Origin: a virus
Lineage: Duplodnaviria; Caudoviricetes
Virus record (IMG/VR): IMGVR_UViG_3300047160_009226
Coordinates: 136,690-200,689 of that record
Strand: one strand, 5' to 3'
Length of the DNA stretch: 64,000 bases
Shown: positions 532 through 44,104 of the stretch, piece by piece
Position numbering within the stretch: position 1 is the stretch's first letter
Layout of the letters: each line of letters begins with the position of its first letter
Program-made: the position numbers and the translations under genes
The notes under the pieces: generated by a model
What the model was told of the DNA's origin: nothing
The model's input: only the letters and a program-made list of their open reading frames with translations
Databases searched by the model: none

Positions 532-1899
532 CTAAACTCTAATTGAAATAGAACCCCTCTGCACCAGCAAAGCTTTTCTCCTAGTTCCCAATCGCTCGTA
601 AGTTTCTCGCGTCACATATACCTTAGGCCACGGATATGCGCTAAACCTTATTTCTGCCACTTCAGTCCTCATGTCTGTTCCACAAAAACGACATTCATCC
701 CGTTCAATCAAGTCCAACTTATGGCAACCGGGACATTTGTAAGTCTTTGCCGCTAAAATCTTGTTCTCCCTTGGAATCTTACTTGAAACCAACCAAAAAG
801 CTCGAAACATGGATTCCAGTCTCTGTATCCGTGCTGGAATGGAAGGAGGAGCCATTCTCAATGTATGCGCAATCTCCTCGATTTGCAAACCAGCCATCAA
901 TAGAGTATAAAAATCCATCCACGTTCGCCGCTCTTTAATCATGATCGAAGGATCATAATTCGGGTTAGAGAAATCCTTCTGTGTAATAAAATCTCCTGTA
1001 AACATATCGACATACTGCGCATGATCCACCGGATCTTGTGTAATATAATCCACTAGTAAATAATTGGGAACCATTGGGCAAATTCCAATGTCATTAAGTT
1101 CAGGAGTTGTTACCCTACTATTGAAACGTCCTCCTTGAAGATAGAAAACATTCATCTCTACCAATGTTGGAATTTCAATAGTTCCTGGAGGAAGAAGAGT
1201 GCATAACTTTTCAAAATCGCGACGCACAATAGTCCTGATTGGTTTCTGTAATCTCAAATATCTCTCCCAATCTTCCATAACCTCCTGCCTGATGAGATCG
1301 TCCTCAAGAAACTCATCCTGATTGAGATCGTATAAACAGGATGCAGCTGTTCTGCCGTGTTTATCACGATCGTGTTCTCTGTCTAAAGAAAAAGCACCAG
1401 TTGTCACCTTCTTGCTTCTCCTTGACTTATATGTGTGCACATACCGTTGAATCGGCTTCAACAAAAAGTTGCGCCACGGTGAGACCAGTGGATTATATCT
1501 CTCCACCCATCTTGCCTTCACCCACTTTAGAGACATTTCCTGTACGATATCTTCAACATCATCATTCAACACTCTTGTACTGCGGACCAGTTGACATAAC
1601 CAATCACGGCCATTGCTCGATGAAAAAGCCTGCTCGAATGTTTGACCAGTGAATCCATAATTCTCAATCAACAACCGATATCTATCTCTGTAGAATTCCT
1701 CCCATGAGTCATATGTTTTATTCAACCTCGCAAGAATGTTAATAGCTTCCTCACTGTAAAGCGAAAAACCATCTATAAAAATTTTCAAAATCTCAGCTTC
1801 CTCACCCTCCCTGGAGCATTCCCTCGCCAATAACTCAAGAATGTTCACACTCTCTGGAGTGAGGATCCACATCTGTGCTTTCTCCCGGTTGGAGTCCAT
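532..1899 (-). CDS. Atypical sigma-70/ECF-like factor with internal insertion and C-terminal Zn ribbon
   Basis: Region-2-like EDIVQEMSLKWVKARWVERYNP..WRNFLLKPIQRY; region-4-like HTH LMAGLQIEEIAHTLRM; CPGC...CRFC. Confidence 0.6.
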   Translation of the reverse strand: MDSNREKAQMWILTPESVNILELLARECSREGEEAEILKIFIDGFSLYSEEAINILARLNKTYDSWEEFYRDRYRLLIENYGFTGQTFEQAFSSSNGRDWLCQLVRSTRVLNDDVEDIVQEMSLKWVKARWVERYNPLVSPWRNFLLKPIQRYVHTYKSRRSKKVTTGAFSLDREHDRDKHGRTAASCLYDLNQDEFLEDDLIRQEVMEDWERYLRLQKPIRTIVRRDFEKLCTLLPPGTIEIPTLVEMNVFYLQGGRFNSRVTTPELNDIGICPMVPNYLLVDYITQDPVDHAQYVDMFTGDFITQKDFSNPNYDPSIMIKERRTWMDFYTLLMAGLQIEEIAHTLRMAPPSIPARIQRLESMFRAFWLVSSKIPRENKILAAKTYKCPGCHKLDLIERDECRFCGTDMRTEVAEIRFSAYPWPKVYVTRETYERLGTRRKALLVQRGSISIRV

Positions 1900-2061
1900 T
1901 CAATCATCAGAATAAAAACCTTCTCTCGGTTTCAACGAGAAACCAATCGTAAATGCAAAAAAGCACACAACACAATCTTGATCCTACCCATTACAGATAG
2001 TATCAGATTTAGAATACCAAGGTCTAATTCAATAAATAAGAGAAAGCCGAAGAATAACCAA

Positions 2062-3357
2062 TCACAAAACCTTGACGTTCGATATCCCTTGTACCAATCG
2101 ACGTAGATGCCCCTCAGAGACCCGCTCAAGAGACCTTAAAGAATATGCACGATCGCCCATCTTGATCAATAGTGGCACCTTTACTACATTCTGTACATGC
2201 GCTGCCTGAAAGATCGCCAGGTGGAGTCTACCTGCGTCTTCTGCTGTAATCCCTGACACCAAGAGCGTTACATCGTCTCTTTTAGGCGAAGCCTTCTCTG
2301 GCTTTGGCAAATCCTTTGTTGCTGGATCGAGATCATCAATTCCTGTCAGATTCCCCCAATTATCTCCAATCTCAATATCAACTTTCAGTGGAATATTCCA
2401 TTTAGGAATGGTAGGGAGGATTTTCCCTTTAGGAGTAAGCGTCATTTCCCGGCCGATGTCCCGTAAAATTTCATACATTGCTGCGGATTCACGGATCTCA
2501 AAGTCCAATTCATCATGAACTGTCAACATCATTTTCACGTCATCACATAACTTTTGCTTTGTGAGAAAAGAATCAACACGAGTCATGGCTATCTTCAACA
2601 GATCAGCACTCGATCCCTGAATCGGGCTGTTACATGCCGTTCTGTGACAGAATCCATGACCCATCTTCTTTCCGGCTTTCTTCCCTTTCCCCGTACCTAC
2701 ATTCTCATTGGCCTTGGCAATCATCGCCTTCATCTCACGTTTACGTCGAAAGAATGTCCAGACATGTCCATGTTCCTTATAATACTCTTCCTGATTCTTT
2801 GTCCATTTTTTATAAGTCGGAACAGCACCACACCACTTCCTCCATGCAATAACTGCTTCAGCGTATGTTAGTGTTGTCAAATGCCAAAATGTATCAACAC
2901 CAGAAAGATATAGATTTCCGAAGTTGCCCATCTTAGCAATGTCTCGTTGAGCCTTATCCGGTTCGTCAGTTCGGAACATAACACGAGCCATCTCAAAATG
3001 TAAATCTCTGTCCTCCTGAAATGCTTTGACCCAGACAGGCTCACCGGACAGAAGTGCTGCCACTCGAAGCTCGATCCCAGCAAAGTCGATGCATGCCCAC
3101 TTGAATCCTGGTCTAGCTATGAATGCTTCTCGAATATTGATCCCAGGGCCGATCTTGATGGTCGTCTCTTCTTTGTCACAAATAGGAAAATACAGACAAC
3201 CATCACAAGAAGGACGTACACAGTAATTTGCTTTGTCACGGATATAAAAATACTTCTCCTCCGGATGCTGAAGTTTTTTCTCGGGATCAGGATAGTATGT
3301 CAAGAGCTGCTTGGGAGGCTTGACATCACCAACTTCAAGGGTTTTCTTCTCAGCCAT
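2062..3357 (-). CDS. polA: Family A DNA polymerase, C-terminal (palm/fingers) subunit
   Basis: Motif A DFAGIELRVAALLSGE, motif B RDIAKMGNFGNLY, motif C LTVHDELDFE; own SD (AGGAG) upstream of 3357. Confidence 0.9.
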   Translation of the reverse strand: MAEKKTLEVGDVKPPKQLLTYYPDPEKKLQHPEEKYFYIRDKANYCVRPSCDGCLYFPICDKEETTIKIGPGINIREAFIARPGFKWACIDFAGIELRVAALLSGEPVWVKAFQEDRDLHFEMARVMFRTDEPDKAQRDIAKMGNFGNLYLSGVDTFWHLTTLTYAEAVIAWRKWCGAVPTYKKWTKNQEEYYKEHGHVWTFFRRKREMKAMIAKANENVGTGKGKKAGKKMGHGFCHRTACNSPIQGSSADLLKIAMTRVDSFLTKQKLCDDVKMMLTVHDELDFEIRESAAMYEILRDIGREMTLTPKGKILPTIPKWNIPLKVDIEIGDNWGNLTGIDDLDPATKDLPKPEKASPKRDDVTLLVSGITAEDAGRLHLAIFQAAHVQNVVKVPLLIKMGDRAYSLRSLERVSEGHLRRLVQGISNVKVL

Positions 3358-3375
3358 GACCTATCTCCTAGTTAT

Positions 3376-3549
3376 TTACACATTTTTGACCTGATATCCA
3401 GGAAGCACTGGCCCAACAAATCCAGGTGATGATGGGTCATGAAGCCAAAAATATACAATTAGATTGGGATCAAGCAATCCTAATCTAACCATCAACTCAA
3501 CATCAACCTCTCTCTGGCCAAACCATTTCATCATTTCTTTTGTTGGCAT
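3376..3549 (-). CDS. Small 57-aa ORF between the two polA halves
   Basis: Hand translation MPTKEMMKWFGQREVDVELMVRLGLLDPNLIVYFWLHDPSSPGFVGPVLPGYQVKNV*; fills the 215-nt gap. Confidence 0.55.
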   Translation of the reverse strand: MPTKEMMKWFGQREVDVELMVRLGLLDPNLIVYFWLHDPSSPGFVGPVLPGYQVKNV

Positions 3550-3572
3550 TGTTTTTCAATCATTTACTATAG

Positions 3573-4805
3573 TTATTTATTCGGGTCTTCAATCTTCACC
3601 CGCCTAACTTTAGCCGTCTTATAATCACTGGCGCTGGTAATTGCCTGCGGGTTCATTGGAGTGTACAGACTGTCGCCCTTGTCCACTCCTCCTGATGAAA
3701 ATCTACCCGTAGGAGCCCCAATCGAGACGAACCGAAAAACCACCGAAGGACTGTCTTCAGTGGCAGTCAACAAAGGATCAACATAAGTTGTTATTTCCTT
3801 CACAATCGATCGATAAAAAAGAATGTCATCGACAATAGGATGCTCTTTCGCCAAAGGTGTAAGTGCTTTGGCGTTAGTCTCGTAATTCACCTGCTTCTCG
3901 TTCTGAGTTCTCTTCAATGGCACTCCCTTCTCTCTCAGAACCCGAGCCACTTCCTTGTTGGAGTCCAAGTCAAACTCTTCCTTCAAGTCGTCATAAATAC
4001 CAGAAGAGACGTCATCGACCCATCGCTCCAGATCCTTATGTGCCTGCTGCAAAAATGCCCGATCAATCGTAATCCGATTCTCTGTCATTCGGCCCAACGT
4101 GCCAAGAAGTCTATGCTCCATATCGGCAATGAATCCTTGCTCTCGATCCACTTCTGGCTTACAAATATCTAAGACTGCCAATGAAAAGACTGGGTCGGCT
4201 GCCGCATATAGTGTAGCTTCTTCAGGATTCGAAAGAGAAAAGTCAATCTCCTTGGATCGCTTCCCTTTCCTAATCCCAGGAACATCATGAATGAGGTTCA
4301 TCTCCTGCTTACAAATCTCTAAGGCCGCATCCTTAAGGTTGAATTGTTTTTTATCAGAGTCGTACAGCCAACGATATACCATAGCATCGTTGAGGCTTTT
4401 TAGGGTGGTATCACGATATACCCCCTTGTTCCGAAGAATCGTTCCCTCAAACTCCCAGTTATACACAACCACTAGTCTATGTTCAATCTCGTCCAACAAC
4501 ATCTGCCATACTTGACTTGGATCCAGGTTCATTTCTGGAAAATTCATATGCTTGATCGGGACATATACCCCCTCCCTTTCTGTGAATGCCAAACAAAAAC
4601 CGCACACAGATTCCCATGTGCGGCTTAAGTCCTTCGTTTCAAAGTCGATCGAGATTCTATTAAATGCGTGCCCTCTCTGAAAGAATTCCCGAAGCTCTGA
4701 CAAGGTCGTGATCTGATACAATCTCCTCTCCGTCATCCACTCTTTCCACAAATGAGACTCCGCGAACGCTTTCTGAGTCTCTAAGGAAAAAGTATCAACT
4801 TGCAT
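3573..4805 (-). CDS. polA: Family A DNA polymerase, N-terminal subunit (3'-5' exonuclease + thumb)
   Basis: ExoI DFETKD, ExoII YNWEFE, ExoIII YAAADP, thumb region, GAPTGRFSS...MNPQAI (cf. TATGRLSS..PNLQNIP). Confidence 0.85.
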   Translation of the reverse strand: MQVDTFSLETQKAFAESHLWKEWMTERRLYQITTLSELREFFQRGHAFNRISIDFETKDLSRTWESVCGFCLAFTEREGVYVPIKHMNFPEMNLDPSQVWQMLLDEIEHRLVVVYNWEFEGTILRNKGVYRDTTLKSLNDAMVYRWLYDSDKKQFNLKDAALEICKQEMNLIHDVPGIRKGKRSKEIDFSLSNPEEATLYAAADPVFSLAVLDICKPEVDREQGFIADMEHRLLGTLGRMTENRITIDRAFLQQAHKDLERWVDDVSSGIYDDLKEEFDLDSNKEVARVLREKGVPLKRTQNEKQVNYETNAKALTPLAKEHPIVDDILFYRSIVKEITTYVDPLLTATEDSPSVVFRFVSIGAPTGRFSSGGVDKGDSLYTPMNPQAITSASDYKTAKVRRVKIEDPNK

Positions 4806-5097
4806 GAGATCCCTCGATGTATTTTTCTAAAGGACACTTCCGATCCCTGTGATAAACACATTCAATGCAATGAACCGAAGAATCTGGACAGATCGTCAAA
4901 GATAATTCAGACACATAAAAAATAGATCTACTGTTCTCAGGATTCGAAACCAACTTGGAACCTACACCAATACCTCTCAGACGACATCTTCTCATAACAA
5001 TTTGATGACATAGCGGCCCAAGACATACATTACTAACAATCTGAGCTGTTTTAGTTGAGATCAACTTGAGACAGCGGTGACATTTGATCATAATCAA
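4795..5097 (-). CDS. Cys-rich putative Zn-finger protein
   Basis: CHRC, CLGPLC, CIEC and further Cys; coupled to neighbours. Confidence 0.5.
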   Translation of the reverse strand: MIMIKCHRCLKLISTKTAQIVSNVCLGPLCHQIVMRRCRLRGIGVGSKLVSNPENSRSIFYVSELSLTICPDSSVHCIECVYHRDRKCPLEKYIEGSHAS

Positions 5098-5458
5098 CGT
5101 TCAACTCTCGGTCTTGTTGAGCCAAGATAATACATCCCACGGGATCAAATCGATCTCTCATTAAGAGTCTCAAAACGCTTTCCAATAAATTACCTTCAAC
5201 TTTAGCTCGCATCAGCAAATCATACTCAGGACTTATGATCTCTGGATGCTTGATATAATCTTCAATCGACTTGATCAATTCGACTCTAGTCTGATTATCT
5301 TGAGCTTTCTTCGTCTTTAAAACCAACAACAACTCCCGAAAAACGGGCTCCTTGAGCATCGCAACCATATCATTGGTCTCCTTCTTTCTACGATGTGGTA
5401 AAAATCCATTCTTAAGAAAGCCCTTCCTATGTAGTTTCTCCATCACTCTTTTAGACAT
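5051..5458 (-). CDS. Hypothetical protein
   Basis: ORF track 5051..5515; start refined to ATG 5458 (MSKRVMEK) after SD GAGGG. Confidence 0.6.
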   Translation of the reverse strand: MSKRVMEKLHRKGFLKNGFLPHRRKKETNDMVAMLKEPVFRELLLVLKTKKAQDNQTRVELIKSIEDYIKHPEIISPEYDLLMRAKVEGNLLESVLRLLMRDRFDPVGCIILAQQDRELNVDYDQMSPLSQVDLN

Positions 5459-5525
5459 ACCGCCACCCTCAAAGAAAAAATCTTCCTTTTTCAATCCATT
5501 ATAATTAAACACCAATCCATTAAAA

Positions 5526-41134: not shown

Positions 41135-44104
41135 TTATTCAATCGAAGTGACGGGTGCCAAAGAGACTGATACTGAAGGTTGTACATCAGGAATGAAGAG
41201 TTCCACTCCTAGATCAGTGCTCCACGTCTTTCTCTGCAAGTCTATCTGATGTGAAATAGAAGTAACAAGCCACTTGCTATTAACTGTATCCAATAACTCA
41301 ATCCTAGCATTCCCGGGAATCTTACATCGTGCTGCTGAACGTGGTCTTGATTGTCCCTTAGAAATCTGAACTGCTAATCGTTGTATTTCATTAACATCTT
41401 TAACTATTTGAGGAATTGCATATACTGCCATCTTTGCCCAAGCAAATGTTGGATAAGTATCCAGATTCACAGTCATCATAACTGCTTGAGTTGGTGTAGT
41501 TGTAAAATTAGTAGCTAGAGGTTTTCCGATTTGTGGATATGCTACCAATGCAGAAATTATAATCTGATTTCTAACCCACGTATGATCTGGTTCATCCGAA
41601 AAAGTTTCAAGTGCAGAGTCAGGTAAGATCCAATTATTTCCAGTTGATTTCTGTACATCTATATAAATGCAAGTACCGAATCTATCAAAGTAATATAAAG
41701 TTCCTGCATATTTAGCAATTGTATCCATTGCCTCAGAAACTGGTGTCCCCCTCGGAAAGTCTATAACCGGATTATTGATATTATAAGAAGAAATAAGCTT
41801 AAACGGTGTTGCCAAGCTTGTGTTAATAGGAAATCCACCATAAACCGCCATATAACGCATGGCATCACGATGATCATATCCATCGAAAAATGGTACATTG
41901 ATTAATCCTATCCCACCTTCAGAATTAATCTTGCTCTCTCGTCCTTTAAGAGGCATCTGAACCAGATTTTCTCCTGGATTATCTACTTCAGCATTGCCAT
42001 AAGCAATTCCTGTGAAGATAATTCCAGGTATGGTGTTCGCTCCACCTATCACCTGAATCTGAATTGCTCCCACTTCCTGATATGGTCGTGGATCAACTGT
42101 TTGTGTCACAGGATCAAAACGATCCCATTCAATAGTCCCACTGGCACCATCCAGTGCTCTTTGAACATTGACCGATCGAATACGAGGTATTGAAATCGCA
42201 GCACTTGATAAGACTCCATCTTGATTCATAGGGGCATGTGTGACGAAGTCCTCGTCTATGATGACATTATCCACAATTATAGCACCCCAAACTTGTATAG
42301 GAACTCGCACATCTGGGGTAATACTCTTAAACTCCATGGAGAAGCACGCAAACGGAGCTTGCCTATCCTTGACGATAGTACAGAGATGTGTCCGAAAATC
42401 TACAAAATTTCCACTCTGAAATCCAAATACCGGCATAGTGATTGCTTTAGACTTTGTCTCAACATAAAATACATTCTGATTAATAGGTTTTTCCTTAATT
42501 TTAGATTTCTTTCTCTTAGGTGGGAACAATGGCGGCGGTGGTGGTGGAGAGCCAGGTGGTGCAACAGGAACATACTCTGATGTTGTTAAATCCTGAGGAC
42601 TAGCTGCTCCTGGATAAATAAAGTGATATCTTGAGAACTGAGGAAAATATATCGGTACAAATTTTAATGCTCCACCACAATGAGAGTAGAATACGCTTAA
42701 TCGATTCCCCATTGAAAATGTAGATGGTTGTCCAGTACCAGTATTCGATCTTGAAAGTAAACTTGTGCCTGTCTTCGAGTTGACAATCCTAACTCCAGGG
42801 GTCTTATATCTCTTGCCTTTACGCATGACAACAGTTTTAGGAATGTAATTAGGATCTCGGACATCATAGTCGCTCTGCAGAGGAGGATTAATTATGTTAG
42901 TAATTTCTGTATTAATATTCAAATCTTCATCAATCGGAACAAAGCTAACAGTGTTACCCCAGTCAGAAGATTGAGGATTGCCATAAGAGATCAGTATCCC
43001 ATTCCAAACTGGAATGAAAGTCAAAATATAAACTTTATCCCCATATCCATGAGTTAGCACATTAGCCACCGTCGGCTTTATATTAATCTTCTGAGGAGGA
43101 TCCTTCCTCCGTATTGATACATGAAGCTCTTCTTGCCCTTCAAACAATTCTACTACTACAGTGTCAAAACCAAAAGTAATCTTAATTGACCATGCTGCAG
43201 CTTGAGATCTATTATCGTTAGTTCCTTTCTTTATTCCAAAAATTAGCGAAAAAGCATTTAATGAATCTCCATTTTCAATTCCAGCATCTTTTTCCCGTTC
43301 AACAGGGTATAAATAAACATGATTCATTATCTCCTCATCACATGGCTGAACTTGAACATCAACAGCCCCATCCGTCCTCGGTGTAAGTTTCTCTTTCTGC
43401 TCGTCTTTGTGTTTCATCTGCCACCAATACGTCGTATTCTCTGGATCAGTCGTGTTACCGTCATTTAAAACTCCATTGCGATGTCTCCTAGCTTGAGGAG
43501 AGAAATAAGGAGTACTGATACATGAATTAATAGCATCGATATATACGGCTGAAGGAGTGTCCTTGAATGCCTTATACATAGACTTCATAAAAGGATCCCA
43601 CTTATCTTTATAACGTTTATAATTCGGACTCCCTGTATTAGGAACAACTCCTATTAGATCTCTAGGTGTATACTTAATTTCATCAAAAGGAAGATTCGCA
43701 GGTAAATCTGGGATAGGATTTTTAGAAGAACGAGGAGGAGGTGGTAGTAGAAGTGAAGGTGGAGGTGGCAGACTAGAAGATAGAAGTAGAGGTGGAGGTG
43801 GAGGTAACGGACTAGAAGATAGAGGTGGAGGTGGTGGTAAGAATATAGTTCCAGGATCAGCATAATTCTTAATTAAAAAATGCGTTGGTGGCTTCGGCTT
43901 CGTCGTTAAAACAATCAAGTCCTTAGTCTGATCTTTTCCAATAGGTTGCGTTCTCCTAGAATAAATATCCAAAATTGTAAAAATATTCGCCGGTACTGCG
44001 TCTATTGATGGAAGTTCTCCAGGAGGTGGTTGGGACGGACTCCCCACCTGCACCTGAATATTAGGTGCTACCTTCTCCAAACCCTCATCAGCATATGATG
44101 GCAT
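41135..44104 (-). CDS. Putative tail-tip/baseplate hub protein (gpD/gp27/Tal-like C-terminal half)
   Basis: Directly after the tape measure; FPRGTPVSEAMDTIAKYAGTLYYFDRFG and KIPGNARIELLDTV...WLVTSISHQID. Confidence 0.7.
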   Translation of the reverse strand: MPSYADEGLEKVAPNIQVQVGSPSQPPPGELPSIDAVPANIFTILDIYSRRTQPIGKDQTKDLIVLTTKPKPPTHFLIKNYADPGTIFLPPPPPLSSSPLPPPPPLLLSSSLPPPPSLLLPPPPRSSKNPIPDLPANLPFDEIKYTPRDLIGVVPNTGSPNYKRYKDKWDPFMKSMYKAFKDTPSAVYIDAINSCISTPYFSPQARRHRNGVLNDGNTTDPENTTYWWQMKHKDEQKEKLTPRTDGAVDVQVQPCDEEIMNHVYLYPVEREKDAGIENGDSLNAFSLIFGIKKGTNDNRSQAAAWSIKITFGFDTVVVELFEGQEELHVSIRRKDPPQKINIKPTVANVLTHGYGDKVYILTFIPVWNGILISYGNPQSSDWGNTVSFVPIDEDLNINTEITNIINPPLQSDYDVRDPNYIPKTVVMRKGKRYKTPGVRIVNSKTGTSLLSRSNTGTGQPSTFSMGNRLSVFYSHCGGALKFVPIYFPQFSRYHFIYPGAASPQDLTTSEYVPVAPPGSPPPPPPLFPPKRKKSKIKEKPINQNVFYVETKSKAITMPVFGFQSGNFVDFRTHLCTIVKDRQAPFACFSMEFKSITPDVRVPIQVWGAIIVDNVIIDEDFVTHAPMNQDGVLSSAAISIPRIRSVNVQRALDGASGTIEWDRFDPVTQTVDPRPYQEVGAIQIQVIGGANTIPGIIFTGIAYGNAEVDNPGENLVQMPLKGRESKINSEGGIGLINVPFFDGYDHRDAMRYMAVYGGFPINTSLATPFKLISSYNINNPVIDFPRGTPVSEAMDTIAKYAGTLYYFDRFGTCIYIDVQKSTGNNWILPDSALETFSDEPDHTWVRNQIIISALVAYPQIGKPLATNFTTTPTQAVMMTVNLDTYPTFAWAKMAVYAIPQIVKDVNEIQRLAVQISKGQSRPRSAARCKIPGNARIELLDTVNSKWLVTSISHQIDLQRKTWSTDLGVELFIPDVQPSVSVSLAPVTSIE

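What the first reader, a model, noticed from the sequence alone, without database searches (positions are those of the whole stretch)
2062..4805. Family A DNA polymerase split into two genes with an unrelated ORF in between
Seen: exo+thumb (3573..4805) ends just after the NLQNIP-equivalent (MNPQAI) with a short basic tail. Palm/fingers (2062..3357) has its own AGGAG SD and a ~70-aa N-terminal extension containing C-x4-C-x2-C-x5-C (CVRPSCDGCLYFPIC) before IREAFIA. A 57-aa ORF fills the gap. No group I intron core or intein termini are recognisable. Inference: a naturally heterodimeric PolA whose halves gained docking extensions, possibly metal-bound.
Basis: partly seen in the sequence, partly recalled or inferred. 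Interest (0 to 1): 0.7.

Follow-up and report, generated by a model that had tools for sequence, protein, structure and literature searches.

The report
Two-gene phage DNA polymerase with Cys4 insert
An uncultured 200-kb soil phage encodes its only recognisable DNA polymerase as two proteins, cut inside a cysteine-rich insert that uncut relatives also carry; split phage polymerases are known, but this cut site, the four invariant cysteines and a bacterial-replicase-like tail are not described.

Summary
ORF 3573..4805(-) encodes the 3'-5' exonuclease plus thumb, and ORF 2062..3357(-) encodes palm and fingers. The second ORF has its own AGGAG and a 71-aa leader holding C-x4-C-x2-C-x5-C. A 57-aa ORF lies between them.

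The split is real and old. About 35 C-halves and 35 N-halves from independent metagenomes (30-88% identical) keep it, always adjacent, with all catalytic motifs. No other replicative polymerase was detected in the 91%-complete genome. The predicted heterodimer scores ipSAE 0.88 against 0.00 for controls.

No intron, intein or assembly error is involved. The gap is a variable slot: 8 nt to a 191-aa ORF in relatives, with unrelated contents. The 57-aa ORF is an orphan passenger.

The "gained docking extensions" reading is not supported. The N-half tail and C-half leader are two pieces of one 70-130-aa insert, between N-x-Q-x-I-P and motif A, that single-chain relatives also carry, Cys4 knuckle included.

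One new point: the last 76 residues fold like the tau-binding tail of bacterial Pol III alpha (Z 6.7 and 5.8, next 3.4). The phage also encodes DnaX-type clamp-loader subunits.

The metal (Zn or Fe-S) and the tail's partner are untested. The scan has found other split polymerases elsewhere, of different types.

The parts
3573..4805 (-). PolA subunit 1 (410 aa): 3'-5' exonuclease, thumb, and the first part of the lineage-specific insert
   Evidence: PF01612 res 32-218 and PF00476 positions 3-123 at res 251-371. phrog_17 E 3e-26. 35 homologs, most 405-450 aa. Invariant D54, E56, N116, E120, Y200, D204, T366-G367-R368.
4152..4712 (-). 3'-5' exonuclease domain (res 32-218)
   Evidence: PF01612. 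Exo I D54-x-E56, Exo II N116-x3-E120 (Glu where Klenow has Asp) and Exo III Y200-x3-D204 are invariant in 24 sequences.
3576..3650 (-). Tail of subunit 1 (res 386-410): N-P-Q-A-I, S-A-S-x-Y-x-x-A-x-x-R-x-V strand and a short variable end. This is the N-terminal piece of the insert.
   Evidence: Conserved to R-x-V and variable after it. Colinear with the insert of single-chain relatives. Residues 386-387, 389-392 and 394-408 are in the predicted interface.
3358..3572 (.). Intergenic slot between the halves (215 nt)
   Evidence: No Rfam hit. Fold z -0.44. Promoter-like sites not above shuffles. Unrelated to the gap of the 78%-identical relative L082. Relatives have 8 nt, 68 nt, two small ORFs, a 127-aa ORF or a 191-aa ORF here.
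3376..3549 (-). Orphan 57-aa ORF, probably a real small passenger gene and not part of the polymerase
   Evidence: Only itself found among 5.8 billion proteins. No Pfam or PHROG hit. In-frame codon score 0.297 against a gene mean of 0.267, with shifted frames at -0.70 and -0.52. No clear Shine-Dalgarno sequence.
3365..3369 (-). AGGAG Shine-Dalgarno sequence of subunit 2, 7 nt before its ATG
   Evidence: Read directly from the sequence. The N-terminus M/V-A-E-K-K-x-L-E-V-G-D-V is conserved from the start codon onward in relatives.
2062..3357 (-). PolA subunit 2 (431 aa): second part of the insert with the Cys4 knuckle, palm and fingers (motifs A, B, C), and the C-terminal tail domain
   Evidence: PF00476 positions 138-380, E 6.7e-49. 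About 35 homologs, most 400-440 aa. Invariant D91, E96, R98, R138, K142, N145, F146, H281, D282, E283. Model pLDDT 81.7, with best PDB matches Bst, Taq and Klenow Pol I.
3145..3357 (-). Leader of subunit 2 (res 1-71): P-P-x-x-L-L, F-Y-x-R...Y-C beta-hairpin and Cys4 knuckle. This is the C-terminal piece of the insert.
   Evidence: Alignments A1 and A5. pLDDT 45-65 when folded alone. Residues 7-13, 15, 17-18, 20, 22, 29, 37-48, 56 and 59-82 are in the predicted interface. An HMM of this leader also hits 10 single-chain PolAs.
3178..3222 (-). C46-x4-C51-x2-C54-x5-C60 knuckle, a presumed metal site
   Evidence: C46, C51 and C60 invariant and C54 at least 90% in 25 sequences. All four invariant in the 23-sequence leader alignment. 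The same motif lies about 30 residues before motif A in 33 split and 10 single-chain proteins.
2065..2277 (-). C-terminal domain (res 361-431), beta-alpha-beta-beta-alpha-beta, with a Pol III alpha tau-binding-tail-like fold
   Evidence: pLDDT 85.5. VIA-align: 2hpi_A 1124-1197 Z 6.7, rmsd 2.3 A over 68 residues; 5fku_A 1076-1152 Z 5.8; next row Z 3.4. AlphaFold DB clusters return C-termini of Pol III alpha entries. Sequence-level comparison is not significant.

Best explanation
The locus encodes the phage's replicative family A DNA polymerase as two separately translated polypeptides that assemble non-covalently into one enzyme.

Subunit 1 carries the proofreading exonuclease and the thumb. 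Subunit 2 carries palm and fingers with all three catalytic motifs.

The cut lies inside the polymerase domain, in the variable linker of a 70-130-aa insert located between the N-x-Q-x-I-P motif and motif A. This PolA subfamily carries that insert whether or not the gene is split. After the cut, the insert's first strand stays on subunit 1. Its hairpin and four-cysteine knuckle stay on subunit 2. The two pieces pack against each other and against the thumb base, so the old insert serves as the seam.

The cysteines most likely hold a structural metal, either Zn or a [4Fe-4S] cluster.

The space between the genes is a slot where unrelated small genes come and go. The 57-aa ORF is one such passenger.

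A 76-residue tail on subunit 2, found only in the split clade among the sequences held, resembles the tau-binding tail of bacterial Pol III alpha. It probably tethers the polymerase to another replisome protein, such as the phage's DnaX-type clamp loader or the host's tau.

Shown here: the split, its conservation, the intact motifs, the shared insert and the fold likeness. Inferred: assembly, metal binding and the tail's partner.
For: Split and domain content.

Conservation: about 35 C-halves and 35 N-halves at 30-88% identity, from separate JGI, ENA and Logan assemblies. The N-half lies directly upstream in all five contexts read. The index-free profile search adds more split representatives and no single-chain form within the near clade. 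The window sits in an all-split clade of 30 rows with SH-aLRT 98.

Function retained: motifs A, B and C and the Exo I-III residues are invariant.

Only replicase detected: no Pol III alpha and no PolB in the 200,689-bp, 91%-complete record.

Independent translation: the AGGAG and an N-terminus conserved from the start codon.

Insert shared with single-chain PolAs: the distance from TGR to motif A is 51 aa in canonical PolAs and 118-183 aa in both split and single-chain Cys4 forms, and the break falls in the variable linker.

Assembly: complex prediction ipSAE 0.88 in all three runs, best of 3 controls 0.00. That mark was reached by 58 of 80 solved complexes and 2 of 110 mismatched pairs. The runs agree in at least 95% of contacts and the partner's pLDDT is 81. 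The interface includes tail residues 386-408 and leader residues 7-22, 37-48 and 59-82. Because single-chain Pol I structures are solved, much of this pass reflects likeness to them and does not prove that this pair binds.

Tail. In E. coli Pol III alpha, residues 1079-1160 are the tau-binding domain (PMC4703070). Clamp-loader genes are present in the genome.

The CX2CX5C spacing ligates Fe-S clusters in NUBP1 and RseC (PMC8007109, PMC11729352).
Against: There is no biochemical or expression evidence.

The heterodimer model is expected to pass by resemblance to solved Pol I structures.

No public contig bridges the gap in this exact genome. Independence rests on relatives.

The tree backbone is weak, so the order of events (insert first, split later) rests on canonical PolAs being single-chain and not on a rooted test.

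The Cys motif matches no metal-site family. The best PDB hit is ZAP at E 0.87 and Pfam gives nothing.

The tail's likeness to Pol III alpha is at fold level only. hhalign gives probability 0.7-1.3%, with E 0.04 and 0.076. Z 6.7 is below the level at which the tool says a common arrangement can be excluded.

The phage DnaX-like protein is gamma-length (410 aa), with no room for tau domains IV-V. No sliding clamp was detected.

The genome is 91% complete, so another polymerase could be missing.
Confidence: 0.8

Rival explanations
1. After the gene split, each half acquired a new terminal peptide as a docking device. Under this reading the Cys module evolved for heterodimerisation, and the single-chain Cys4 PolAs are secondary re-fusions of split genes.
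For: The tail and leader lie in the predicted interface. The leader is disordered when folded alone. The tree backbone is unresolved, so direction is not formally excluded. One single-chain pair (P0162, P0212) groups with split forms in an open fork.
Against: Ten single-chain PolAs in at least five separate lineages carry the same insert in the same place, colinear with tail plus leader. Repeated exact re-fusion is less parsimonious than one or a few fissions. Every other PolA family is single-chain across this junction. The break position differs slightly between split lineages: L001 breaks after P-P-A-E-L, the window before P-P-K-Q-L-L.
Confidence: 0.1
2. The halves are rejoined into one chain by a small intron, a split intein (a 'fractured gene' with a cargo ORF between the halves), or translational bypass.
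For: The layout of two halves in order with an ORF between them resembles fractured genes (PMC2677866). The genome holds other mobile elements according to earlier notes of this scan. Relatives carry true inteins elsewhere in the C-half (P0012).
Against: No Rfam hit at E <= 1 and no excess RNA structure. One relative has only 8 nt between the genes. The N-half tail after N-P-Q-A-I is 22 aa, not a roughly 100-aa N-intein, and starts with no Cys or Ser block. The leader has no H-N plus Cys/Ser/Thr junction. Tail and leader are extein sequence, since single-chain relatives retain them. The start codon, SD and N-terminus are conserved.
Confidence: 0.03
3. The gene is a broken pseudogene or an assembly or frameshift artefact, and replication relies on a host or unassembled polymerase.
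For: The record is 91% complete. No public contig bridges the gap in this exact strain.
Against: The same two-gene layout occurs in dozens of independent assemblies at 30-88% identity, with all catalytic residues invariant. Both ORFs have gene-like codon usage, scoring 0.24 and 0.28 for the terminal peptides.
Confidence: 0.02
4. The two products work apart: subunit 1 as a free proofreading or repair exonuclease and subunit 2 as a stand-alone polymerase.
For: Exo-less and exo-separated PolAs exist (PMC10201439). The two genes have separate translation signals.
Against: The cut is not at the exo/pol boundary. Subunit 2 lacks the thumb and the T-G-R and N-x-Q-x-I-P DNA-binding motifs, and subunit 1 carries them without a catalytic centre. 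The genes are always adjacent and in order. The predicted interface is large, about 240 contacts.
Confidence: 0.05

Closest known systems
Split PolA of T7-like cyanophages (S-SBP1 / S-TIP37 type, PolA cluster 5; PMC10201439, PMC12695635)
   Same: A family A phage polymerase encoded by two adjacent genes. It arose by gene fission, not by frameshift or splicing. The halves are predicted to reassemble into the normal fold.
   Different: That cut separates the exonuclease domain from the whole polymerase domain, and the new termini are solvent-exposed. Here the cut is inside the polymerase domain (thumb | palm), within a lineage-specific Cys4 insert, and the termini are buried in the predicted interface. 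The sequence family is different, with at most about 30% identity to any cultured phage PolA.
[quoted passage not shown]
   Same: Two-gene PolA with small unknown ORFs between the parts.
   Different: LUZ24-like part I is 171 aa (exonuclease only) and part II is 546 aa, about 2 kb apart. The break point of MEP401/402 could not be checked here. Neither paper reports a Cys module.
Split family B polymerase gp43 of some T4-like phages, and fractured genes with split inteins (as reviewed in PMC2677866)
   Same: The polymerase is cut within the catalytic region into two genes kept in order. The intervening DNA is variable and sometimes holds a mobile ORF. Invasion of a free-standing gene is the proposed origin.
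   Different: Different polymerase family. There are no split-intein halves here, and none of the gap ORFs seen has a homing-endonuclease domain.
HMO-2011-type phage PolA with a partial DnaJ Cys-rich (2 x CXXCXGXG, Zn-binding) insert (PMC9038755)
   Same: A phage family A polymerase with a cysteine-rich, presumably metal-binding insert upstream of the catalytic palm.
   Different: Different motif and no detectable relation. Only one chance CXXCXGXG occurs among 282 proteins held. [quoted passage not shown]
C-terminal tau-binding domain of bacterial Pol III alpha (E. coli residues 1079-1160; PDB 5fku, 2hpi; PMC4703070)
   Same: The same beta-alpha-beta-beta-alpha-beta arrangement, at the extreme C-terminus of a replicative polymerase (Z 6.7 and 5.8, 68-69 residues aligned).
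   Different: It is attached to a family A polymerase, not a family C one. There is no significant sequence similarity. The preceding OB domain is absent. The binding partner is unknown.

Membership tests
Family A DNA polymerase (PF00476) | Motif A (D-x-x-x-x-E), motif B (R-x3-K-x3-F-x3-Y) and motif C (H-D-E) in a palm/fingers fold | tested here: met
   PF00476 E 6.7e-49. D91, E96, R138, K142, F146 and H281-D282-E283 are invariant in 25 sequences. Foldseek E 4e-18 to Bst, Taq and Klenow Pol I.
Family A DNA polymerase (PF00476) | Thumb with the T-G-R and N-L-Q-N-I-P-type motifs, contiguous with the palm in one chain | tested here: not met
   The motifs are present (T366-G367-R368, N385-x-Q387) but lie on the other polypeptide. 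The enzyme is a member only as a two-chain assembly.
DnaQ-like 3'-5' exonuclease (PF01612, DEDDy) | Exo I D-x-E, Exo II N-x3-D, Exo III Y-x3-D | tested here: met
   PF01612 E 7.7e-7. D54, E56, N116, E120, Y200 and D204 are invariant. The Exo II acid is Glu instead of Asp. Activity was not tested.
Exo/pol-split T7-like PolA (S-SBP1 type) | [quoted passage not shown] | tested here: not met
   The break falls after PF00476 position 123, between the thumb and motif A.
Fractured gene with split intein | An N-intein of about 100 aa at the end of the first half, and a C-intein ending H-N followed by C/S/T at the start of the second | tested here: not met
   The tail is 22 aa beyond N-P-Q-A-I. There is no H-N junction. 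Both peptides are retained in single-chain relatives, so they are extein.
Group I / II intron-interrupted phage polymerase gene | A structured ribozyme core between exons that join in frame | tested here: not met
   No Rfam hit at E <= 1. Fold z -0.44. Gap of 8 nt in one relative.
[4Fe-4S] cluster sites with C-x(n)-C-x2-C-x5-C spacing (NUBP1/Nbp35, RseC; EndoIII/MutY loop recalled from memory) | Four Cys with the C-x2-C-x5-C core ligating a cubane, shown spectroscopically | tested here: inconclusive
   The spacing C-x4-C-x2-C-x5-C is present and conserved. No profile match to any Fe-S or Zn family. Metal content cannot be tested with these tools.
HMO-2011-type DnaJ-insert PolA | Two CXXCXGXG repeats in the polymerase | tested here: not met
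   None in the window's protein. One single motif in P0024 only.
Pol III alpha C-terminal tau-binding domain (PF20914) | The fold of the alpha tail domain | tested here: met
   Z 6.7 (rmsd 2.3 A, 68 aa) and Z 5.8, against 3.4 for the next row. AlphaFold DB hits are C-termini of Pol III alpha entries, E 4e-3 to 0.1.
Pol III alpha C-terminal tau-binding domain (PF20914) | Sequence homology to DnaE tails | tested here: inconclusive
   PF20914 finds nothing in the genome at E <= 1. hhalign probability 0.7-1.3% with E 0.04-0.076, although colinear over 59-78 columns. The control domain gives E 0.81.
Pol III alpha C-terminal tau-binding domain (PF20914) | Binds tau / DnaX | not testable with these tools
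A DnaX-like gene (410 aa) and a delta'-like gene (291 aa) exist in the genome.

The most novel reading that the evidence does not exclude
This clade of soil jumbo phages runs a hybrid replisome. Its family A polymerase is held together at the thumb-palm seam by a [4Fe-4S] cluster, which would be the first iron-sulfur site in a family A polymerase. The polymerase is coupled to a DnaX-type clamp loader through a tail domain borrowed from, or convergent with, the tau-binding domain of bacterial Pol III alpha. The probability given is for at least one of these two claims holding.
Probability: 0.3. Interest if true: 0.8.

Novelty: new variant of a known kind. Interest (0 to 1): 0.55.

Why it matters
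Two-gene family A polymerases were first reported in 2023 and only as exo | pol splits. This clade shows that the polymerase domain itself can be cut between thumb and palm and kept that way over deep divergence (30-88% identity). Natural single-chain cousins are available as controls.

Three questions become directly testable:
- Can a surface insert serve as the seam of a split enzyme?
- Can a family A polymerase carry a structural Zn or Fe-S site, as family B polymerases and primases do?
- Can a PolA be plugged into Pol III-type accessory machinery through a tau-binding-like tail?

The naturally split, self-assembling pair may also be useful for engineering split polymerases.

Tried and rejected
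- **Rfam** over 1500-5500 at E <= 1: nothing.
- **Gap signals:** the promoter scan of the gap shows no enrichment.
- **IMG/VR scan** with the C-half profile: only PolAs at 29% identity or less.
- **JGI metagenome scan:** one close relative with DNA (L082). Loci that matched from residue 8-17 proved to be ordinary bacterial Pol I, so those early match starts are alignment noise.
- **Leader against cultured phages** by tblastn: no match. Hendrix gp88 and a faecal contig lack the module.
- **Metal-site family searches:** Pfam at E <= 10 on all 25 C-halves finds no Zn or Fe-S family. A PDB profile search with the leader finds only ZAP at E 0.87 and a glucosidase. The EndoIII/MutY loop resemblance is recalled from memory and was not confirmed by any tool.
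- **Language-model look-alikes of the tail:** scores 0.82-0.83, a lead only.
- **DnaE profile building:** the genome-contig scan for DnaE tails returned only 95-100% identical enterobacterial copies. A phylum-wide sample replaced it.
- **Wrong accession:** KC465899, recalled for HMO-2011, was a pelagiphage. No HMO-2011-type sequence was held for comparison.
- **Sequencing runs:** no RNA holder listed. The laid Logan contigs are short and low-depth, and none bridges 3358-3572.
- **L001's record** is not held, so its gene set could not be searched.
- **Gap ORF comparisons:** 57-aa ORF against L082's 127-aa gap ORF gives E 3.1. The gap DNAs are unalignable.
- **Translational bypass or readthrough:** rejected because the gap ranges from 8 to about 600 nt and the downstream start is conserved.
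Full report
**What is there**

On the minus strand, ORF 3573..4805 (410 aa) carries a DnaQ-type 3'-5' exonuclease (PF01612, residues 32-218). It also carries the first third of the family A polymerase profile (PF00476 positions 3-123, residues 251-371). ORF 2062..3357 (431 aa) carries the remainder (positions 138-380, residues 72-335). PHROGs agree.

The first ORF ends 22 residues after N-P-Q-A-I. The second starts 7 nt after an AGGAG and has a 71-residue leader with C46-x4-C51-x2-C54-x5-C60. A 57-aa ORF (3376..3549) lies in the 215-nt gap.

**Context**

The window is the last 64 kb of a 200,689-bp viral record, estimated 91% complete. Upstream lie a DnaB-type helicase and a sigma factor.

The genome has no detectable Pol III alpha or family B polymerase. 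The only other PolA signal is a sub-threshold remnant elsewhere. The split gene is therefore the only recognisable replicase.

**The split is conserved, not an accident**

Searches of 5.8 billion proteins found about 35 C-halves, most 400-440 aa, and about 35 N-halves, most 405-450 aa. They are 30-88% identical to the window's proteins and come from separate assemblies.

In all five relatives whose context could be read, the N-half is directly upstream of the C-half. The polymerase motifs (D91, E96, R138, K142, F146, H281-D282-E283) and the exonuclease residues (D54, E56, N116, E120, Y200, D204) are invariant.

An index-free profile search of 1.84 billion representatives added more split members. 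It found no single-chain form inside the near clade. In a tree of 101 sequences the window lies in an all-split clade of 30 rows with SH-aLRT 98.

**Not spliced**

- Rfam finds nothing at E <= 1.
- The gap RNA is no more structured than shuffles (z -0.44).
- One relative has only 8 nt between the genes.
- The tail is too short for an N-intein, and the leader has no H-N/Cys-Ser-Thr junction.
- Both peptides persist in single-chain relatives, so they are extein sequence.

**The gap is a slot**

Between the halves, relatives have 8 nt, 68 nt, two small ORFs, a 127-aa ORF (L082, whose C-half is 78% identical), or a 191-aa HhH-GPD/Ogg-like ORF (L001). The window's gap DNA and its ORF are unrelated to L082's.

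The 57-aa ORF has no homolog at all. Its codon usage is typical of this phage's genes: in-frame score 0.297 against a gene mean of 0.267, with shifted frames at -0.70 and -0.52. It is probably a real orphan passenger gene and not a polymerase part.

**The extensions are an old insert, cut in two**

The profile search also returned single-chain PolAs of 768-1553 aa: P0155, P0162, P0164, P0185, P0206, P0220, P0232, P0248, P0256 and P0270. Each has the same C-x4-C-x2-C-x(3-5)-C motif about 30 residues before motif A. BLAST shows that each has an N-half-like region, then an insert, then a C-half-like region.

I aligned the stretch from T-G-R to motif A. Canonical PolAs need 51 residues. The Cys4 subfamily needs 118-183, whether single-chain or split.

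The insert reads as follows:
- a conserved S-A-S-x-Y-x-x-A-x-x-R-x-V strand;
- a variable linker;
- P-P-x-x-L;
- an F-Y-x-R...Y-C hairpin;
- the Cys4 knuckle;
- an acidic turn, followed by I-G-P-G-x-N-I-R-x-A-F.

In split genes the stop and start fall in the variable linker. The exact position differs a little between lineages: L001 breaks after P-P-A-E-L, the window before P-P-K-Q-L-L.

An HMM of the leader hits the ten single-chain proteins at E 1e-7 to 8e-4 within the held set. So the halves did not gain docking peptides. They inherited the two sides of an existing insert. The tree backbone is too weak to root the order of events formally. Fission of a single-chain ancestor is still the economical reading.

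**Assembly**

The heterodimer prediction gave ipSAE 0.88 in three runs against 0.00 for the best of three controls. That mark was reached by 58 of 80 solved complexes and 2 of 110 mismatched pairs. The runs agree in at least 95% of contacts, and the partner's pLDDT is 81.

The interface has about 240 contacts. It includes the N-half tail (386-408) and most of the leader (7-22, 37-48, 59-82). The leader is disordered when the C-half is folded alone (pLDDT 45-65).

Solved single-chain Pol I structures exist, so the pass largely reflects that likeness. It supports binding but does not demonstrate it.

**The cysteines**

Four invariant cysteines within 15 residues argue for a metal site. No profile links them to a known Zn or Fe-S family.

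The C-x2-C-x5-C core is a recurrent Fe-S ligand spacing. NUBP1/Nbp35 CX13CX2CX5C binds [4Fe-4S] (PMC8007109), and RseC CX5CX2CX5C forms an oxygen-sensitive Fe-S cluster (PMC11729352). A compact zinc knuckle is equally possible. I leave Zn against [4Fe-4S] open at roughly even odds.

The 2023 reclassification of PolAs does not contain the words cysteine, zinc or iron. The only Cys-rich PolA insert I found in the literature is the unrelated DnaJ-type one of HMO-2011 phages (PMC9038755).

**The tail**

Residues 361-431 are conserved (P395 and L418 invariant). They fold confidently, alone or in context, as beta-alpha-beta-beta-alpha-beta.

I aligned the model against 48,161 PDB representatives. 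The two best matches are the extreme C-terminal domain of Pol III alpha: Taq 2hpi_A 1124-1197 at Z 6.7 (rmsd 2.3 A, 68 residues), and E. coli 5fku_A 1076-1152 at Z 5.8. The next row scores 3.4. Foldseek against AlphaFold DB clusters returns the C-termini of several Pol III alpha entries at weak E-values.

In E. coli, residues 1079-1160 are the tau-binding domain (PMC4703070).

Sequence comparison does not reach significance. hhalign gives E 0.04 against E. coli alone. Against a 30-genome DnaE-tail profile it gives E 0.076 at probability 0.7%, colinear over 78 columns. A neighbouring-domain control gives E 0.81. This is therefore a fold-level likeness.

Among the proteins held, the tail HMM hits only split-type C-halves, 43 of 43.

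The genome encodes a DnaX-like clamp-loader ATPase (410 aa) and a delta'-like subunit (291 aa). No clamp is detectable by Pfam. A tethering role for the tail is an inference.

**Comparison with what is known**

- Split PolAs are published for T7-like cyanophages, as an exo | pol split reported as the first in the family (PMC10201439, PMC12695635).
- LUZ24-like phages have a 171-aa part I and a 546-aa part II (PMC3890496).
- Split family B polymerases and fractured genes are also known (PMC2677866).
- Earlier reports of this scan describe several split polymerases in other genomes, of other types.

What differs here is the cut site inside the polymerase domain, its location within a Cys4 insert shared with single-chain relatives, and the Pol III alpha-like tail.

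**Verdict**

This is a real, conserved, two-subunit family A replicase. It is a new variant of a known kind, with two open and testable features: the metal site and the tail's partner.

Noticed in passing
P0012 (relative's C-half, 567 aa); also P0138, P0139, P0141, P0165, P0174, P0180, P0183: Some C-halves of the family carry inteins. P0012 has an insert of about 150 aa at R-T-A-C-N | C-L-A-D-G ... V-L-V-H-N | S-P-I-Q-G, with a weak PF14890 hit. Others are 600-1580 aa and match in 2-3 stretches, which suggests one or two inteins each.
   Followed up: partly
L001:3385-3960 (+): In a 38%-identical relative the slot between the polymerase halves holds a 191-aa HhH-GPD/Ogg-like DNA glycosylase gene (PF22175, E 5.5e-8).
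   Followed up: partly
window 532-1899 (-): The 455-aa ORF just downstream of the C-half has a same-sized neighbour in all four relatives' contexts. It is homologous to L001's neighbour (E 7e-10). It has no Pfam or PHROG hit. Language-model features point to phage sigma-70 region 2 proteins (score 0.93, a lead only). It ends with C-P-G-C ... C-R-F-C.
   Followed up: partly
G000:C1:~42466-43698 and ~104248-105123 (outside the window; L168:805-2037, L169:1081-1956): The phage encodes a DnaX-like clamp-loader ATPase (410 aa) and a delta'-like subunit (291 aa). No Pol III alpha and no Pfam-detectable beta clamp were found. An unassigned 330-aa ORF sits next to the delta'-like gene and could be a divergent clamp or delta.
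   Followed up: partly
G000:C1:91159-91485 (outside the window): A sub-threshold PolA-like remnant (PF00476 positions 260-378, 22 bits) in a 295-aa frame. It was noted earlier in this scan as a possibly dead polymerase.
   Followed up: no
window 1922-1942 (-) and 3739-3764 (-): There are two terminator-like hairpins. One lies about 120 nt after the C-half stop. The other lies inside the 3' part of the N-half coding region.
   Followed up: no
window 3300-3368: One soil-metagenome contig (run X2, 91% alike, depth about 2) matches the start of the C-half and then diverges exactly where the gap begins. This fits a strain with different gap content.
   Followed up: no
P0157, P0159, P0165, P0171, P0174, P0183, P0190: A second group of split C-halves carries a different cysteine pattern (C-x2-S-P-x-D-Y-D-C-x-F-x-C) at the same place before motif A. 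The insert's metal site may therefore come in more than one version.
   Followed up: no
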